A DNA stretch of 11,227 nt. Source: a virus (taxonomy: Duplodnaviria; Heunggongvirae; Uroviricota; Caudoviricetes). Under the pieces are notes generated by a model. That model was not told the origin of the DNA. It ran no database searches and worked only from the letters and a program-made list of their open reading frames with translations. The number at the start of each line of letters is the position of its first letter. The first letter of the stretch is position 1. The position numbers and the translations under genes were made by a program. Below, in pieces: positions 1,757-7,104 of this stretch. Where the stretch lies: IMG/VR virus record IMGVR_UViG_2913157538_000006; one strand, 5' to 3'.

Positions 1757-1795
1757 TGATCTTACCCAGCAATAGTGGACACGCGGCTAAGTGAG
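1757..1795. repeat. IS3 left terminal inverted repeat
   Basis: TGATCTTACCCAGCAATAGTGGACACGCGGCTAAGTGAG matches the reverse complement of the right end at about 30 of 39 positions (aligned by eye). Confidence 0.8.
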
Positions 1796-1821
1796 TAAAC
1801 TCTCAGTCAGAGGTGACTCAC

Positions 1822-2121
1822 ATGACAAAAACAGTATCAACCAGTAAAAAACCCCGTAAACAGCATTCGCCTGAATTTCGCAGTGAAGCCCTGAAGCTTG
1901 CTGAACGCATCGGTGTTACTGCCGCAGCCCGTGAACTCAGCCTGTATGAATCACAACTCTACAACTGGCGCAGTAAACAGCAAAATCAGCAGACGTCTTC
2001 TGAACGTGAACTGGAGATGTCTACCGAGATTGCACGTCTCAAACGCCAGCTGGCAGAACGGGATGAAGAGCTGGCTATCCTCCAAAAGGCCGCGACATAC
2101 TTCGCGAAGCGCCTGAAATGA
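1822..2121 (+). CDS. insE: IS3 OrfA (transposase N-terminal, HTH DNA-binding part)
   Basis: ATG at 1822 is preceded by GAGGTG (1810-1815). Product is 99 aa ([32 protein letters not shown] ...) with a leucine-zipper-like C-terminus. The ORF track begins at an upstream GTG (1813); the ATG is the more likely start. Confidence 0.88.
2084..2088 (+). other. Candidate programmed -1 ribosomal frameshift site (A-AAG) for the OrfAB transposase
   Basis: In the orfA frame the codons read CAA AAG (2083-2088). The -1 frame is open from here into orfB. IS3-family frameshifting at A-AAG or A-AAA-AAG motifs is established knowledge; this exact site is inferred, not demonstrated. Confidence 0.5.
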
Positions 2122-2984
2122 AGTATGTCTTTATTGAAAAACATCAGGCTGAGTTCAGCATCAAAGCAATGTGCCGCGTGCTCCGGGTGGCCCGCAGCGG
2201 CTGGTATACGTGGTGTCAGCGGCGGACAAGGATAAGCACGCGTCAGCAGTTCCGCCAACACTGCGACAGCGTTGTCCTCGCGGCTTTTACCCGGTCAAAA
2301 CAGCGTTACGGTGCCCCACGCCTGACGGATGAACTGCGTGCTCAGGGTTACCCCTTTAACGTAAAAACCGTGGCGGCAAGCCTGCGCCGTCAGGGACTGA
2401 GGGCAAAGGCCTCCCGGAAGTTCAGCCCGGTCAGCTACCGCGCACACGGCCTGCCTGTGTCAGAAAATCTGTTGGAGCAGGATTTTTACGCCAGTGGCCC
2501 GAACCAGAAGTGGGCAGGAGACATCACGTACTTACGTACAGATGAAGGCTGGCTGTATCTGGCAGTGGTCATTGACCTGTGGTCACGTGCCGTTATTGGC
2601 TGGTCAATGTCGCCACGCATGACGGCGCAACTGGCCTGCGATGCCCTGCAGATGGCGCTGTGGCGGCGTAAGAGGCCCCGGAACGTTATCGTTCACACGG
2701 ACCGTGGAGGCCAGTACTGTTCAGCAGATTATCAGGCGCAACTGAAGCGGCATAATCTGCGTGGAAGTATGAGCGCAAAAGGTTGCTGCTACGATAATGC
2801 CTGCGTGGAAAGCTTCTTTCATTCGCTGAAAGTGGAATGTATCCATGGAGAACACTTTATCAGCCGGGAAATAATGCGGGCAACGGTGTTTAATTATATC
2901 GAATGTGATTACAATCGGTGGCGGCGGCACAGTTGGTGTGGCGGCCTCAGTCCGGAACAATTTGAAAACAAGAACCTCGCTTAG
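2118..2984 (+). CDS. insF: IS3 OrfB (transposase catalytic DDE domain; normally expressed as an OrfAB fusion)
   Basis: 288-aa ORF in the -1 frame relative to orfA, with ATGA overlap at 2118-2121. Contains an integrase-like catalytic core (WAGDITYL ... [10 protein letters not shown] ... [13 protein letters not shown]). Confidence 0.88.
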
Positions 2985-3014
2985 GCCTGTGTCCATATTA
3001 CGTGGGTAGGATCA
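2976..3014. repeat. IS3 right terminal inverted repeat
   Basis: Reverse complement TGATCCTACCCACGTAATATGGACACAGGCCTAAGCGAG pairs with the left end. Confidence 0.8.
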
Positions 3015-3847
3015 TTGAAGTCATATGAAGTGGAAATCGTTTTCATAAATGACGGCAGCAAAGACGCTACGGAGTCAATCATTAATGCTCTGGCTGTTTC
3101 AGATCCTCTAGTTGTTCCGCTGTCATTTACACGCAACTTTGGTAAAGAACCAGCATTGTTTGCAGGGTTAGACCATGCAACCGGGGATGCGATAATCCCA
3201 ATTGATGTTGACCTGCAAGACCCGATTGAGGTTATTCCTCATCTTATTGAAAAATGGCAAGCAGGTGCTGATATGGTTCTTGCTAAAAGATCTGACCGCT
3301 CAACTGATGGACGCCTGAAGCGAAAAACGGCTGAGTGGTTCTATAAGCTCCACAATAAAATAAGCAATCCTAAAATTGAAGAGAATGTTGGTGATTTCAG
3401 GCTGATGAGCCGTGATGTTGTCGAAAATATTAAACTTATGCCAGAACGAAACCTTTTCATGAAAGGTATTCTGAGCTGGGTAGGAGGAAAGACAGATATT
3501 GTTGAATACGTGCGAGCGGAAAGAATTGCTGGAGATACAAAATTTAATGGATGGAAACTTTGGAATTTAGCACTTGAGGGTATTACAAGCTTTTCCACAT
3601 TCCCTCTTCGCATCTGGACATACATAGGGTTAGTGGTAGCCAGTGTAGCATTTATTTATGGGGCGTGGATGATTTTAGATACTATCATATTTGGAAATGC
3701 TGTTAGGGGATATCCTTCACTACTTGTTTCAATACTGTTTTTAGGTGGAATTCAGATGATTGGAATAGGAGTATTAGGTGAATATATTGGACGCACATAC
3801 ATTGAAACCAAAAAACGCCCGAAATACATCATCAAGAGAGTCAAAAA

Positions 3848-5179
3848 ATGAATAAAGCAATAAAAGTATCATTGTATATATCTTTTGTTTTGATTATTTG
3901 CGCCTTATCTAAAAACATAATGATGTTAAATACATCTGATTTCGGAAGAGCCATTAAGCCATTAATTGAAGACATACCAGCATTTACATATGACTTACCT
4001 TTATTGTATAAATTGAAAGGTCATATTGATTCAATTGATAGCTATGAGTATATAAGTTCATATAGTTATATTTTGTATACATACGTCCTGTTTATTAGCA
4101 TTTTTACTGAATATCTTGATGCTAGGGTGTTATCGTTATTTCTAAAAGTAATATATATTTATTCATTATATGCGATATTTACTTCATATATAAAAACAGA
4201 AAGGTATGTAACTTTATTTACATTCTTTATTTTAGCTTTTCTTATGTGTTCTTCATCAACACTGTCAATGTTTGCATCATTCTATCAAGAGCAAATAGTT
4301 ATAATTTTCCTTCCATTTTTGGTGTATTCATTAACATGCAAAAACAATAAATCTATGCTTTTGCTATTTTTTTCGTTGCTAATAATATCTACTGCTAAAA
4401 ATCAATTTATATTAACCCCACTAATAGTGTATTCATATTATATTTTTTTTGATAGACACAAACTAATTATTAAATCTGTAATATGCGTGGTGTGCTTGCT
4501 TGCGTCAATATTTGCAATATCTTATTCAAAAGGTGTTGTTGAATTAAATAAGTACCATGCAACATACTTCGGTAGTTATCTTTATATGAAAAACAACGGG
4601 TATAAAATGCCATCGTATGTTGATGATAAGTGTGTTGGGTTAGATGCCTGGGGTAATAAATTCGACATATCATTTGGCGCAACCCCAACAGAAGTTGGAA
4701 CGGAATGTTTCGAATCTCATAAAGATGAAACGTTTTCGAATGCACTCTTTTTATTGGTTAGCAAACCAAGCACCATCTTCAAACTTCCATTTGATGATGG
4801 TGTGATGTCTCAGTATAAAGAAAATTATTTCCATGTATATAAAAAACTACACGTAATATATGGAGAATCAAACATACTAACGACTATTACTAACATAAAA
4901 GACAATATATTTAAAAACATTAGATTTATATCATTGTTATTATTTTTTATTGCTTCTATTTTTATTAGAAATAATAAAATAAAGGCATCTTTATTTGTAG
5001 TATCTCTTTTTGGAATATCTCAATTTTATGTGTCATTTTTCGGGGAAGGATATAGAGATTTAAGCAAGCATTTATTTGGAATGTATTTTTCGTTCGACCT
5101 TTGCTTATACATAACAGTCGTTTTTTTAATTTATAAAATAATTCAAAGAAATCAAGACAATAGCGATGTAAAGCACTAA
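3848..5179 (+). CDS. yfdI: Serotype-specific O-antigen glucosyltransferase (GtrS-type polytopic membrane protein)
   Basis: 443-aa strongly hydrophobic, AT-rich ORF with multiple membrane spans and a larger soluble segment. Third gene of a gtr cassette, with ATGA overlap to gtrB at 3848-3851. The symbol is the recalled K-12 locus name. Confidence 0.82.
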
Positions 5180-5187
5180 GTTTAAAT

Positions 5188-5209
5188 TGCGCGCCAATCA
5201 TGGCGCGCA
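5188..5209. terminator. GC-rich hairpin immediately after gtrS (possible bidirectional terminator)
   Basis: TGCGCGCC (5188-5195), 6-nt loop, GGCGCGCA (5202-5209): a perfect 8-bp stem 9 nt past the gtrS stop. There is no clear T-run on the plus strand; a short A/T-rich run follows on the minus strand. Confidence 0.35.
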
Positions 5210-5477
5210 CAAGCTATAATACCAACCTAATTTCTCCTCCTCTTAGAGTGACTATATCTCCTGATAGAATTGCGGTATTGACTATCAAATGCCCTGATTC
5301 GTTGTTTATTGTAATATCTCCTCTATCTGCAGACGATAACTTAAATGCATCATTGCCCACAACAAACCCCCTCCAGAACCAAGTGCTGATATTATCATCA
5401 ACAGTGATAGATACATATACTAACTGATTATCGTTATAAGTGATTCCTGTCTTATACTTAACATAAGGACTTCCACT

Positions 5478-5822
5478 TTGATTCTCGATAGACACATAAC
5501 ATCCAGGGGTTATGTTTGTATGCGTCCCGCGACTATCGCCCCATTAACGCCATACGATAAATGGGATGGTGAGAAATGGGTGACGGATACCGAGGCACAG
5601 CATAGCGTCGCAGTAGATGCAGCAGAAGCACAGCGCCAGTCGCTGATTGATACTGCAATGGCTTCCATTAGTCTGATTCAACTGAAATTACAGGCTGGGC
5701 GGAAGCTGATGCAGGCAGAGACCTCCCGACTTAACACTGTGCTGGATTACATTGACGCGGTGACGGCAACAGATACCAGCACCGCGCCGGATGTCATCTG
5801 GCCTGAACTGCCGGAGGAGTAG
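5478..5822 (+). pseudogene. tfaS: Tail fibre assembly protein fragment (C-terminal part only)
   Basis: The C-terminal roughly 90 aa (... PLTPYDKWDGEKW ... LDYIDAVTATDTSTAPDVIWPELPEE) resemble the C-terminal half of phage Tfa/gpU-type proteins and parallel the C-terminus of the convergent yfdK product (DTSSAPDIEWPTPP). The expected N-terminal motif (MxYxYSATTN) is absent. Confidence 0.72.
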
Positions 5823-6234
5823 GCCATTCAATATCTGGCGCACTGGAAGTATCGACCAGCTCCAGTGCGTCCAGATAATCCAGCCACAAATTATATTGCG
5901 CCAGTTCCTCACCTTTCAGACGACCAATAGCCGCTTTACCAGCCCATTGTTTACTGTTCATATAATCGTTGGCCTGATTAATCAATTGCTGCTTTTTCAG
6001 TTCGGCTGCAGCAATCTGTTCCTCATGTGTTGGTGGTGGAATTTCAGACCATGCAGGAAAACCATTTTCTCCAGCGATACGGATTTTTCCTTTCGGCGGT
6101 AATCCGGAAAACTCAATATACACTTGCTCATCAACTTCAACAGCATCATCTGGCCATGAGCCAGCTTGCGTGTAATCCTCTTTCATCTCCAAGGGATAGA
6201 AAGAGTTTGTAGTCGCGGAATATATGTAATTCAT
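5794..6234 (-). CDS. yfdK: Tail fibre assembly protein (Tfa/gpU family)
   Basis: 146 aa, beginning MNYIYSATTNSFYPLEMKEDYTQAGSWPDDAVEV, with GGAG about 7 nt upstream of the ATG at 6234. Lies directly downstream of the tail-fibre fragment on the same strand. Confidence 0.88.
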   Translation of the reverse strand: MNYIYSATTNSFYPLEMKEDYTQAGSWPDDAVEVDEQVYIEFSGLPPKGKIRIAGENGFPAWSEIPPPTHEEQIAAAELKKQQLINQANDYMNSKQWAGKAAIGRLKGEELAQYNLWLDYLDALELVDTSSAPDIEWPTPPAVQAR

Positions 6235-6260
6235 TTTTCACTCCATAAAGTTAAAAGAAA

Positions 6261-6779
6261 TTAACACCCTAATGCGAAAAATGAAGCACCGATACCGGGT
6301 ACGCCTGCTCTGGAAATAAATTTCACCGGGTCCTGGTTATAACCGGCACAAGCTATATAGCCAACATTTGCACTGCCGGGAGTGTAATCCTGAGTCGCAA
6401 ATACCCGCAGACATCTATTCGGAAATGCAATCGGAAAATAGGTTACTGTGTCCTGAGACGTCAGCGGAACATCAATTGGCCCCCATTGAATAATTAAACC
6501 GGATGGCAATTTTTGATATCCAGGAACTGAAGCAGAAAGCATAAAACTACCCATATCAGGTATCTGATTCGCCCCTGTCCCTACATTTCTTTTAGCCGCT
6601 TCTCCCAAACCAAGGTTTTCGAGAGCCTTTTGCACCGTGCCGTCCAATTTGATATCGCCAAACGGATTCTTGCGGCTTAACAGCAGCGCACGAAGCGCGG
6701 TAAGCAGCTGGTCATGCCGCCCCTTCTCCAGGCTGGCACCGGAGGCCTCCACAACGCTGCAAAGCTCCTCCTGCAACAT
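6261..6779 (-). pseudogene. yfdL: Tail fibre protein C-terminal (receptor-binding) fragment
   Basis: 172 aa from an internal Met. The same frame is open further upstream to 6983 with no plausible RBS at 6779, so this is the 3' end of a once larger gene. It is followed by a tfa gene, as in Mu S-U, P2 H-G and e14 stf-tfa pairs. Confidence 0.68.
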
Positions 6780-6828
6780 GTCAAAGTAGTCATCATCCAG
6801 ATCGGTGGCAGGCGTGCCGGTCTGGGGG

Positions 6829-7104
6829 TTACCACGGGTACGGGGGATTACCAAAGGCAGCACCTTTAAGCTCCGCAAGACGTTCTGACCAGTCATGCGC
6901 CAGCGCGTTGTCTTCCGCAGTGTAATACGCGGCACATTTGGCGTTATCACCATCAGTAAACAGATCCAGAACAAACGGGCCAAACAGGGTGTTAATTCCC
7001 CAGAAAATGTTGTCCGGCGTGCGCCACTGATCGCCCACTTCCTTCAGTTCATGGGCTGGTTTGTTCCGCAGCTCCACCAGCGCCTGGCAATATTTATTAC
7101 TCAT
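6829..7104 (-). pseudogene. yfdM: Phage Dam-type N6-adenine DNA methyltransferase, N-terminal fragment truncated just after the NPPY motif
   Basis: Product ends ... [12 protein letters not shown] then stop. NPPY is the catalytic motif IV of N6-adenine methyltransferases, which normally sits mid-protein. Start taken at the Met whose ATG overlaps the yfdN stop (TAATG at 7102-7106); the ORF track extends to an upstream start at 7137. Confidence 0.72.

What the first reader, a model, noticed from the sequence alone, without database searches (positions are those of the whole stretch)
3848..5500. Sharply AT-rich block covering gtrS and an unassigned 300-bp tail with competing ORFs
By eye the composition drops to roughly 30 percent GC from the gtrS start to about 5500, then rises abruptly to about 50 percent where tail-fibre-assembly homology begins. 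The 298 bp between gtrS and tfaS contains a 93-codon minus-strand ORF (5214-5495) and an overlapping 75-codon plus-strand ORF (5200-5427). Stop codons are frequent by chance in AT-rich DNA, so a 93-codon open frame is less likely to be accidental. The minus-strand ORF ends at the GC-rich hairpin 5188-5209. It may be a small accessory gene or the 3' remnant of the gene that originally neighboured the gtr cassette.
Basis: seen in the sequence. Interest (0 to 1): 0.4.

Follow-up and report, generated by a model that had tools for sequence, protein, structure and literature searches.

The report
Tailspike gene stump encoding toxic YodE
The "unassigned tail" after gtrS in this E. coli K-12 CPS-53 prophage is the last 107 codons of a P22-type phage tailspike gene, and the published RyeG RNA and its toxic 48-residue protein YodE come from this stump; the locus is already known, and only its tailspike origin may be new.

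Summary
gtrS (3848-5179) is 27.6% GC. The tail 5180-5500 is 38%, not 30%. GC jumps to 53.6% in tfaS from 5532.

The window is the E. coli K-12 cryptic prophage CPS-53, from a lineage with IS3 inserted in gtrB. The minus-strand ORF is real coding sequence, but not a 93-residue gene. Its frame, open to 5534, is homologous to the extreme C-terminus of long phage tailspike and tail-fibre proteins. E. coli HKUOPY1 carries the same prophage end (99.1% identity) with an uninterrupted 655-codon P22-type tailspike ORF converging on gtrS. K-12 keeps only its last 107 codons. They are joined to the tfaS fragment at a 4-bp crossover (ACTA, 5532-5535) inside a 22-bp patch of similarity.

The last 48 codons (5360-5214) are yodE, carried on the published 199-nt RyeG RNA (about 5382-5184). 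Published work shows YodE is translated and inhibits growth. The hairpin is its terminator.

The plus-strand 75-codon ORF is best read as an antisense shadow frame with no homologues.

The locus is already known. The tailspike origin and the junction are absent from the one characterising paper I read.

The parts
3848..5179 (+). gtrS (yfdI), the serotype-specific O-antigen glucosyltransferase of CPS-53; the strongly AT-rich part of the block (27.6% GC)
   Evidence: 443-aa ORF. 100% identical to the K-12 records, where it follows yfdG and yfdH. GC. [quoted passage not shown] Weak NCBIfam match to WsfD-type hexose transferases, below the cutoff.
5188..5209 (.). GC-rich hairpin between the convergent gtrS and tailspike/yodE reading frames; terminator of RyeG and probably also of the gtr operon
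   Evidence: 9-bp stem, -18.4 and -18.6 kcal/mol on the two strands, z -3.7 and -4.3. It forms the 3' end of the folded RyeG. A rho-independent terminator is reported for RyeG in PMC7498339. The consensus terminator scan did not call it, because the U-tract is only AAUUU.
5214..5535 (-). 3' remnant (107 codons plus stop) of a P22-type tailspike gene: its C-terminal beta-sandwich domain
   Evidence: tblastn and phmmer align it to the last ~105 residues of 519-1010-aa tailspike and tail-fibre proteins. 99% identical to the 3' end of an uninterrupted 655-codon ORF in E. coli HKUOPY1 that carries Head_binding, Beta_helix and YodE Pfam domains. AlphaFold2 model with pLDDT 88 shows 8 strands.
5214..5495 (-).
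   Evidence: Homology continues upstream of its GTG to 5534. The RyeG transcription start derived from the published numbers lies downstream of its start.
5184..5382 (-). ryeG (IS118) transcript, 199 nt. The coordinates were derived here from published numbers and are approximate to a few nt; another study reports two starts 26 bp apart.
   Evidence: PMC7498339 gives a 199-nt RNA, a toeprint A at +37 lying 14 nt from the ORF2 start, an extended -10 box and a rho-independent terminator. Mapped onto the sequence read: A5346 = +37, which puts the start at 5382 and the 3' end at 5184 after AAUUU. The fold has z -2.67. PMC7967276 reports 194-nt and 220-nt forms.
5389..5397 (-). Extended -10 promoter element TGATAATAT of ryeG, lying inside former tailspike coding sequence
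   Evidence: Read from the sequence, 7 nt upstream of the derived start. An extended -10 box is reported in PMC7498339. It is identical in the intact HKUOPY1 tailspike gene.
5370..5374 (-). Shine-Dalgarno GGAGG of yodE, formed by the tailspike codons TGG-AGG-GGG of the conserved W-x-G motif
   Evidence: Sequence and alignment. The Shine-Dalgarno mutant largely abolishes toxicity in PMC7498339.
5214..5360 (-). yodE coding sequence, 48 aa, GTG start at 5360: the toxic small protein, equal to the last four beta-strands of the tailspike C-terminal domain
   Evidence: RefSeq 'protein YodE' WP_211180502.1 sits at the corresponding K-12 position. Pfam PF23504 matches at E 5e-36, 122.5 bits against a cutoff of 27, on residues 46-93 of the ORF. 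Translation and toxicity are published. The strand assignment comes from the model.
5532..5552 (.). Recombination junction between the tailspike remnant (minus strand) and the tfaS fragment (plus strand); crossover in ACTA at 5532-5535 within a 22-bp patch that is 18/22 identical between the two parents
   Evidence: Three-way alignment of HKUOPY1, K-12 and an intact tfa gene of E. coli 09-02E. Tfa-type DNA matches in other genomes start at 5532.
5532..5822 (+). tfaS, a 5'-truncated tail-fibre-assembly pseudogene; 53.6% GC
   Evidence: RefSeq pseudogene annotation. Pfam Caudo_TAP profile positions 34-131 of 131 are matched. GC.
5200..5427 (+). The 75-codon plus-strand ORF: an antisense shadow frame of the tailspike/yodE reading frame; most likely not a gene
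   Evidence: The only database relative is its own near-identical cluster. No Pfam, NCBIfam or PHROG hit. It lies in the wobble-matched antisense frame, which has far fewer stops than antisense frame 1 in all eight homologous genes, but it is not conserved as one ORF. Its ATG at 5200-5202 lies in the hairpin loop and 3' stem.

Best explanation
The window is the argW-proximal end of the cryptic prophage CPS-53 (KpLE1) of E. coli K-12. The ancestral phage was P22-like at this end. Its order was int, then gtrA-gtrB-gtrS (O-antigen glucosylation), then a tailspike gene on the opposite strand. The tailspike gene converged on gtrS and the two shared one GC-rich hairpin as terminator.

In the K-12 lineage, an illegitimate recombination at a 4-bp identity (ACTA) inside a 22-bp patch of similarity joined the tailspike gene, 107 codons before its stop, to the inside of a tail-fibre-assembly gene from an invertible tail-fibre segment. 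The result is the minus-strand open frame 5214-5535 abutting the tfaS fragment.

The AT-rich stump already carried, by accident of its coding sequence, three expression signals. These are an extended -10 element (TGATAATAT), a GGAGG Shine-Dalgarno sequence made by the W-R-G codons, and an in-frame GTG. Together with the old terminator they make the 199-nt RyeG RNA, which is translated into YodE: 48 residues, the last four strands of an eight-strand beta-sandwich.

Shown by others: RyeG binds 30S subunits, YodE is translated, and YodE, not the RNA, delays growth when overexpressed.

Shown here: the tailspike homology, the uninterrupted ancestor-like gene in HKUOPY1, the junction, and the pre-existence of the promoter, Shine-Dalgarno sequence and start codon inside that gene.

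Inferred: YodE is harmful because half a beta-sandwich cannot fold alone and exposes beta-strand edges that aggregate or bind other proteins. The surrounding AT-rich DNA is kept mostly silent by nucleoid proteins, which holds RyeG at a few copies per cell.

The low GC of gtrS is the usual signature of the serotype-specific gene of gtr cassettes. The plus-strand ORF is a shadow of the coding frame.
For: - Identity of the locus: 100% match to K-12 records annotated intS, yfdG, yfdH, gtrS, 'protein YodE' and a tail fiber assembly pseudogene. Pfam YodE matches at E 5e-36 on residues 46-93.
- Published function: PMC7498339 reports a 199-nt RyeG RNA antisense between yfdI and tfaS, an extended -10 box, a toeprint at +37, toxicity lost with an ORF2 stop codon or a Shine-Dalgarno mutation, and 1-5 copies per cell. 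PMC11429745 reports yodE translation induced under low Mg2+ and that the gene could not be cloned. PMC11230228 places ryeG inside a region of dense protein occupancy in 7 of 8 conditions.
- Tailspike origin: an exhaustive phmmer search finds proteins of 265-862 aa whose extreme C-termini align with residues 2-92 of the ORF, E 1e-17 to 5e-4. They carry Head_binding, Tail_spike_N, Phage_tail_fib or Beta_helix domains. Phage genome hits are the last ~80-93 codons of long tail-fibre genes. One homologue sits in the gene-9 position of a P22-like prophage, after gp16 and Mnt/Arc.
- Homology extends to 5534, beyond the ORF start. Conserved motifs are TGIxYxDTQLVYV, WxWxG and GGEIRLI.
- Ancestor-like state: in HKUOPY1, window 3015-5552 aligns at 99.1%. 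An uninterrupted 655-codon ORF there is 54% identical to P0006 over residues 7-640, has Head_binding, Beta_helix and YodE domains, and is followed by P22-type gene remnants.
- Junction.
- The promoter, Shine-Dalgarno sequence and GTG are identical in HKUOPY1. Two of the three K-12 substitutions in the stump hit conserved residues.
- Fold: pLDDT 88, eight strands, with YodE being residues 59-106.
Against: - The transcript ends were mapped here by arithmetic from published numbers, not read from data. Another study reports two starts 26 bp apart and RNAs of 194 and 220 nt.
- The hairpin lacks a canonical U-tract and the terminator scan did not call it.
- The mechanism of toxicity is pure inference. 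No experiment or computation here bears on aggregation or on a target.
- The HKUOPY1 ORF seems to lack the native first few codons, and RefSeq splits it into a partial pseudogene and a 48-aa protein. It may not be functional there either, and it is a sister of the K-12 ancestor, not the ancestor itself.
- No gtr-linked tailspike with this C-terminal domain was found outside E. coli.
Confidence: 0.9

Rival explanations
1. The 93-codon ORF (5495-5214) is itself a gene. It would make a 93-residue accessory protein, a free-standing copy of the tailspike C-terminal domain.
For: An open frame this long is rare by chance: under 1% of shuffles. The full domain folds confidently as a compact beta-sandwich. 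A few automated gene calls in public assemblies predict the 93-aa product (P0001).
Against: The transcription start derived from the published data (about 5382), and the alternative start 26 bp upstream, both lie downstream of the GTG at 5495. Homology to tailspikes continues 13 codons upstream of that GTG, so the start is arbitrary and would remove part of the first strand region. No Shine-Dalgarno motif comparable to the GGAGG of yodE is visible before 5495 in the sequence. The open frame is fully explained by recent descent from a 655-codon gene (99% identity to HKUOPY1). Toeprinting found initiation at the overlapping ORF2/ORF3 start codons around 5360.
Confidence: 0.04
2. The plus-strand 75-codon ORF (5200-5427) is a real small gene overlapping yodE in antisense. 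It could, for example, be an antitoxin or a gtrS-coupled product.
For: It is open for 75 codons in AT-rich DNA; ORFs of at least 75 codons occur in only 4-6% of shuffles. It would be reached by transcription reading through from gtrS.
Against: Its only database relative is its own 99%-identical cluster. It has no Pfam, NCBIfam or PHROG family. It occupies the antisense frame whose third positions coincide with those of the tailspike frame. In eight homologous tailspike genes that frame has 2-6 stops against 7-11 in frame 1, with long open runs (up to 101 codons) that are not conserved in position. Its ATG lies inside a -18.6 kcal/mol hairpin, and no Shine-Dalgarno motif is visible upstream. 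It is not annotated in RefSeq K-12.
Confidence: 0.03
3. ryeG/yodE is the toxin half of a type I toxin-antitoxin module. An antisense RNA from the plus strand would act as antitoxin: gtrS read-through, or a promoter in the 3' end of gtrS.
For: It is a small toxic protein on a structured, poorly translated RNA that stays on 30S subunits. The convergent gtrS transcript must end in, or read through, the shared hairpin. A promoter-like site on the plus strand at 5111-5139 faces yodE.
Against: YodE is not a hydrophobic membrane peptide. By sequence it is a beta-strand fragment of a soluble domain. No antitoxin RNA has been reported. The number of promoter-like sites in the region does not exceed the shuffle expectation. 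The coding sequence, start signals and terminator are all explained as leftovers of a tailspike gene and are present unchanged inside the uninterrupted HKUOPY1 gene. That argues for accidental rather than selected architecture.
Confidence: 0.05

Closest known systems
ryeG (IS118) / yodE of E. coli K-12 CPS-53 (Hör et al. 2020, PMC7498339; Pfam PF23504)
   Same: It is this very locus. The sequence is 100% identical to K-12 records and lies in the same position, antisense between yfdI (gtrS) and tfaS. It has the same 48-aa ORF with a GGAGG Shine-Dalgarno sequence, an extended -10 element and a terminator hairpin.
   Different: Nothing differs in sequence. The paper's text contains no mention of a tailspike or tail fibre. 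The analysis here adds the tailspike origin, the uninterrupted relative in HKUOPY1, and the recombination junction.
P22-type tailspike (gene 9 class; Pfam Head_binding PF09008 plus right-handed beta-helix), placed next to an O-antigen-modifying cassette
   Same: The remnant aligns with the C-terminal domain of proteins that have this architecture (P0006; the HKUOPY1 ORF). It converges on the gtr operon at the prophage end.
   Different: K-12 retains only 107 of about 620-655 codons. The head-binding domain and the beta-helix are gone. This C-terminal beta-sandwich module has no match among solved structures by sequence and only generic Ig-like matches by fold. Whether it resembles the C-terminal region of P22 gp9 itself was not tested.
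gtr serotype-conversion cassettes of Shigella and Salmonella temperate phages (gtrA, gtrB, gtr(type))
   Same: The order is the same: GtrA (PF04138), GtrB (GT2) and a unique polytopic gtr(type) gene next to the integrase. From general knowledge of the family, the type-specific gene is the divergent, low-GC member, and here it is 27.6% GC. The function on O16 O-antigen is published.
   Different: In this window gtrB is split by IS3 (1757-3014), so the cassette should be inactive in this K-12 sub-lineage.
Type I toxins (Hok, Ldr, Ibs, TisB and similar)
   Same: A small toxic protein made from a short, structured, low-abundance RNA that was first catalogued as a non-coding sRNA.
   Different: There is no hydrophobic helix, no known antisense antitoxin, and the origin is a fragment of a structural phage protein. 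The original authors also treat it separately from type I systems.

Membership tests
YodE (Pfam PF23504) / ryeG locus | Sequence match to the family profile above the curated cutoff | tested here: met
   122.5 bits against a cutoff of 27, E 5e-36, profile positions 1-48 of 48 on ORF residues 46-93.
YodE (Pfam PF23504) / ryeG locus | [quoted passage not shown] | tested here: met
   RefSeq K-12 annotation maps to window 5214-5360 on the minus strand, as described in PMC7498339.
YodE (Pfam PF23504) / ryeG locus | A ~199-nt transcript with an extended -10 promoter, a Shine-Dalgarno sequence, a start codon about 22 nt from the 5' end, and a terminator hairpin | tested here: met
   TGATAATAT at 5397-5389, GGAGG at 5374-5370, GTG at 5360 and the hairpin at 5209-5188 are all present at the spacing implied by the published +37 toeprint and the 199-nt length. 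The sequence is consistent, but the transcript itself was not observed here.
YodE (Pfam PF23504) / ryeG locus | Translation of the 48-aa ORF, and growth inhibition that depends on it | not testable with these tools
   Published only: toeprinting, stop-codon and Shine-Dalgarno mutants, and ribosome profiling.
P22-type tailspike protein | N-terminal head-binding domain (PF09008) | tested here: not met
   Absent from the K-12 window; the frame ends at the junction at 5535. Present in the HKUOPY1 ORF (E 2e-55) and in P0006. K-12 therefore holds a remnant, not a member.
P22-type tailspike protein | Central right-handed parallel beta-helix | tested here: not met
   Absent in K-12. The match is weak and just below the Pfam cutoff in the HKUOPY1 ORF (25.3 bits against 25.9). 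PHROG 'tail spike protein' matches at E 1e-101.
P22-type tailspike protein | C-terminal domain collinear with, and ending at, the C-terminus of full-length tailspikes | tested here: met
   Twelve full-length proteins (265-1010 aa) align over the last ~105 residues and end at their stop codons. 99% DNA identity to the 3' end of the HKUOPY1 ORF.
Type I toxin-antitoxin system | The toxin is a small hydrophobic, membrane-inserting peptide | tested here: not met
   The YodE sequence has no hydrophobic stretch of helix length. It is modelled as four beta-strands of a sandwich.
Type I toxin-antitoxin system | A cis- or trans-encoded antisense RNA antitoxin | not testable with these tools
   None is reported. 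Only one non-significant promoter-like site faces the gene.
gtr O-antigen glucosylation cassette | GtrA flippase-like protein and GtrB GT2 bactoprenol glucosyltransferase upstream of a unique polytopic gtr(type) gene | tested here: met
   PF04138 on 1311-1673. PF00535 on the 3' part of gtrB, 3015-3851. gtrS follows. gtrB is interrupted by IS3 in this window.
Intrinsic (rho-independent) terminator | A GC-rich stem-loop followed by a U-tract | tested here: inconclusive
   The stem is strong. The tail is AAUUUAAAC on the minus strand and ACAAGCUAUAAU on the plus strand. The consensus scan found 0 sites. Termination of RyeG here is stated in PMC7498339.

The most novel reading that the evidence does not exclude
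YodE may not be a mere accident. It could be a retained fragment that works as a dominant-negative decoy: half of a tailspike C-terminal domain that co-assembles with, and poisons, the folding or trimerisation of tailspikes carrying the same C-terminal module in superinfecting phages. That would complement the gtrABS receptor modification encoded next to it. More generally, stumps of phage receptor-binding genes, with their accidental internal promoters in AT-rich DNA, could be a recurrent birthplace of toxic or regulatory small proteins. Nothing here tests this. The single comparison with HKUOPY1 shows two substitutions at conserved residues, which fits decay better than selection.
Probability: 0.07. 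Interest if true: 0.65.

Novelty: already known. Interest (0 to 1): 0.3.

Why it matters
The practical result is annotation. A stretch that looks unassigned with competing ORFs is fully explained by a published sRNA/small-protein gene (ryeG/yodE) sitting in a tailspike gene stump.

The one addition of wider interest is the origin. One of the few E. coli small proteins with a clear phenotype is the last four strands of a phage tailspike domain. It is expressed from promoter, ribosome-binding and start signals that already lay hidden inside the intact gene, and it is terminated by the old shared terminator. This is a clean, datable example of a small-protein gene born from a gene fragment: the parental state survives at 99% identity in another strain.

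It also gives a concrete structural hypothesis for YodE toxicity, namely an unfoldable half beta-sandwich, and that can be tested. Finally, it shows that CPS-53 began as a P22-like, O-antigen-specific phage that was later fused to an invertible tail-fibre segment.

Tried and rejected
- Rfam scan of 4900-5900 at E up to 1: no family, so ryeG is not in Rfam.
- Word-indexed protein search with the 93-aa ORF: only four near-identical clusters. The relatives appeared only with the exhaustive phmmer search and with tblastn against phages.
- Scan of GTDB species-representative genomes. The single-protein query found no relative.
- The viral-contig scan returned three loci, L007-L009, which I did not analyse further.
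- A search for a gtr cassette next to other tailspikes with this C-terminus: the four homologues examined sit in a P22-like prophage, a T7-like genome, a siphovirus-like prophage and another prophage, none next to gtr genes.
- Large repetitive proteins among the phmmer hits (P0007, P0013, P0015, P0017, P0018, P0022). They match only short internal stretches many times. The five scanned (P0017 was not) carry Ig-like, cadherin or other repeats, and I set all six aside as repeat or composition matches rather than homologues of the whole domain.
- The consensus promoter and terminator scan did not find the ryeG promoter (poor -35 region) or the hairpin (short U-tract).
It was rerun with ten rows.
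Full report
**What the window is.** The region 5100-5600 is 100% identical to E. coli K-12 chromosomes. It is found, at 99% identity or more, in only 364 of 5,426 complete E. coli genomes. In RefSeq K-12 records the surrounding genes are tRNA-Arg, intS, yfdG (gtrA), yfdH (gtrB), the 443-aa gtrS, a 48-aa "protein YodE" on the opposite strand, a 5'-truncated tail fibre assembly pseudogene (tfaS), yfdK and further genes. This is the cryptic prophage CPS-53/KpLE1. The window differs from MG1655 by a 1258-bp IS3 inside gtrB (1757-3014, with TTG duplicated on both sides). Fifty-five genomes share this insertion, among them C600, RV308 and NEB Turbo.

**Checking the observation.**
- The ORF coordinates are exact.
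- GC is 27.6% in gtrS, 38.0% in 5180-5500, 36.5% in the 93-codon ORF and 53.6% in tfaS. The average of about 30% over 3848-5500 is right (29.6%), but the tail is clearly less AT-rich than gtrS.
- The hairpin 5188-5209 is a 9-bp GC stem (-18.4 and -18.6 kcal/mol, z -3.7 and -4.3). It lies 5 nt after the minus-strand stop codon and 9 nt after the gtrS stop codon.
- An ORF of at least 93 codons arises in under 1% of 5000 dinucleotide-preserving shuffles of the region, and one of at least 75 codons in 4-6%.

**What is already published.**
- Pfam family PF23504 (YodE) matches residues 46-93 of the ORF at E 5e-36.
- Hör et al. [quoted passage not shown] It has an extended -10 box and a rho-independent terminator, and is present at 1-5 copies per cell.
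- In that study RyeG co-sediments with 30S subunits and gives a toeprint at +37. Its overexpression delays growth in E. coli and Salmonella.
- The toxicity is lost with a stop codon in ORF2 (48 aa, named yodE after a ribosome-profiling survey) or with a Shine-Dalgarno mutation.
- Other papers report that yodE translation is induced at low Mg2+ and that the gene resists cloning.
- ryeG lies in a region of dense protein occupancy in 7 of 8 conditions yet keeps moderate expression.
- Two transcription starts 26 bp apart, plus a divergent start towards tfaS, have been reported.

**Mapping the published features onto the window.**
- The 48-aa ORF starts with GTG at 5360 and stops at 5216-5214.
- GGAGG lies at 5374-5370.
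- The A at 5346 is 14 nt from the start codon. Taking it as +37 puts the transcription start at 5382.
- TGATAATAT (TG-n-TAATAT) lies at 5397-5389, 7 nt upstream of that start.
- 199 nt from 5382 ends at 5184, just after the hairpin and AAUUU.
- This RNA folds better than its shuffles (z -2.67), with the hairpin at its 3' end.
- These coordinates are my derivation from the published numbers, not data.

**What the ORF really is.** The word-indexed search found only near-identical copies. tblastn against phage genomes and an exhaustive phmmer search then found proteins of 265-1010 residues whose extreme C-termini align with nearly the whole ORF.
- The hits include an Escherichia podovirus tail fibre protein (E 4e-12) and Vibrio phage proteins. 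In each case the match ends at the last codon.
- The long proteins carry the P22 head-binding domain, Tail_spike_N, the tail-collar fibre N-terminus or beta-helix repeats.
- One (P0006) sits in the gene-9 position of a P22-like prophage, after gp16 and Mnt/Arc.
- Others lie in a T7-like genome and in siphovirus-type prophages. The domain is therefore a mobile C-terminal module of tailspikes.
- Homology continues 13 codons upstream of the ORF's GTG, to 5534. Conserved motifs are TGIxYxDTQLVYV, WxWxG and a terminal GGEIRLI.
- YodE corresponds to residues 59-106 of the model, which are the last four strands.

**The parental state.**
- One non-K-12 genome, E. coli HKUOPY1 from a giant panda, has the same argW prophage end. 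Window 3015-5552 aligns at 99.1%.
- There the minus-strand frame is open for 655 codons. It is 54% identical to P0006 over residues 7-640 and carries Head_binding, Beta_helix (just below the cutoff) and YodE Pfam domains. It also matches PHROG tail spike families at E 1e-101.
- It is followed by P22-type remnants: DNA transfer protein, DUF2824, tail needle knob and packaged-DNA stabilisation protein.
- It is the only one of the 5,426 genomes with this complete gene.
- RefSeq there annotates only a partial N-terminal pseudogene and a 48-aa hypothetical protein. The native first few codons seem to be missing, so I call the ORF uninterrupted rather than proven functional.

**The junction.** A three-way alignment shows that K-12 is identical to the HKUOPY1 tailspike strand up to 5535, and identical to an intact tfa gene (E. 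coli 09-02E) from 5532 onward. The crossover lies in ACTA, within a 22-bp patch where the two parents agree at 18 positions. The tfa donor context is an invertible tail-fibre segment: tail protein, tfa, an inverted tfa, an inverted gp53-like fibre tip and a recombinase. The genes tfaS', yfdK and yfdL in K-12 are the remains of such a segment.

**How the small gene arose.** The extended -10 element, the GGAGG and the GTG are all present, unchanged, inside the uninterrupted HKUOPY1 gene. The only nearby difference is one base at 5387, between the -10 element and the start. GGAGG is made by the TGG-AGG-GGG codons of the conserved WxWxG motif. The expression signals are therefore accidents of an AT-rich coding sequence. 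Whether they already fire inside the intact gene is untested; the truncation left them with a 48-codon reading frame and the old terminator. Of the three substitutions between K-12 and HKUOPY1 in the stump, two change conserved residues: G to S, and P to L within YodE. That fits relaxed constraint, although three sites prove nothing.

**The plus-strand ORF.**
- It has no relatives other than its own cluster and no family hit.
- It lies in the antisense frame whose third codon positions coincide with those of the tailspike frame.
- In eight homologous genes that frame has 2-6 stops per 113 codons against 7-11 in frame 1. Long open runs occur at varying positions.
- Its ATG sits inside the hairpin.
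- I read it as a shadow ORF. Expression data were not available to me.

**Mechanism and confidence.**
- That 5214-5535 is a tailspike stump carrying ryeG/yodE is about 0.9 likely.
- That the hairpin served both convergent genes follows from its position and stability. The U-tract is weak and the scan did not call it.
- That YodE is toxic because it is an unfoldable half-domain is my inference only.

**Novelty.** The locus and its phenotype are known. The tailspike descent, the surviving parental allele and the junction do not appear in the text of the characterising paper. The Pfam hits on tailspikes do make the link discoverable to anyone who looks.

Noticed in passing
window 1757-3014: A 1258-bp IS3 element (transposase ORFs 1813-2121 and 2118-2984) is inserted in gtrB (yfdH), with a 3-bp TTG target duplication at 1754-1756 and 3015-3017. 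It is absent from MG1655-type records but shared by 55 complete genomes, including C600, RV308, GM4792 and NEB Turbo. The GtrABS O-antigen glucosylation system should therefore be inactive in this K-12 sub-lineage.
   Followed up: partly
L014 9034-11001 (E. coli HKUOPY1, NZ_CP019961.1 about 3209477-3211444): RefSeq splits an uninterrupted 655-codon P22-type tailspike ORF into a 225-bp 'incomplete tailspike' pseudogene and a 48-aa hypothetical protein (the YodE homologue), leaving about 1.5 kb unannotated between them. The presence of a YodE protein model may be steering the pipeline away from the long ORF.
   Followed up: partly
window 5532-6983, compared with L015 1-3069: tfaS' (plus strand), yfdK (tfa, minus strand) and the gp53-like fibre tip gene yfdL (minus strand) have the layout of an invertible tail-fibre segment. 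In E. coli 09-02E the same layout is complete, with a tail protein gene on one side and a recombinase-family (invertase-type) gene on the other. CPS-53 is therefore a fusion of a P22-like end with a piece of a different tail-fibre system.
   Followed up: partly
H99, E. coli EC6 NZ_CP182398.1 1456375-1457780: A pig isolate has a tailspike 90% identical in DNA to the N-terminal and beta-helix part of the HKUOPY1 gene, but not to its last ~540 nt. The YodE-type C-terminal domain therefore appears to be exchanged as a separate module.
   Followed up: no
window 5392-5421 and 5489-5516, plus strand: Two sigma-70-like sites face tfaS from inside the tailspike stump, and a published study reports a tfaS transcript start 57 and 83 bp from the two ryeG starts (PMC7967276). 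The number of such sites does not exceed the shuffle expectation, and I did not map the published start onto the sequence.
   Followed up: no
L005 9948-10154 and flanks: The P22-like prophage that carries the tailspike homologue P0006 ends next to a holE-like gene (DNA polymerase III theta family) and thrS-infC-rpmI-rplT-pheST, with no gtr cassette after the tailspike. The organism of GCA_016405845.1 was not identified.
   Followed up: no
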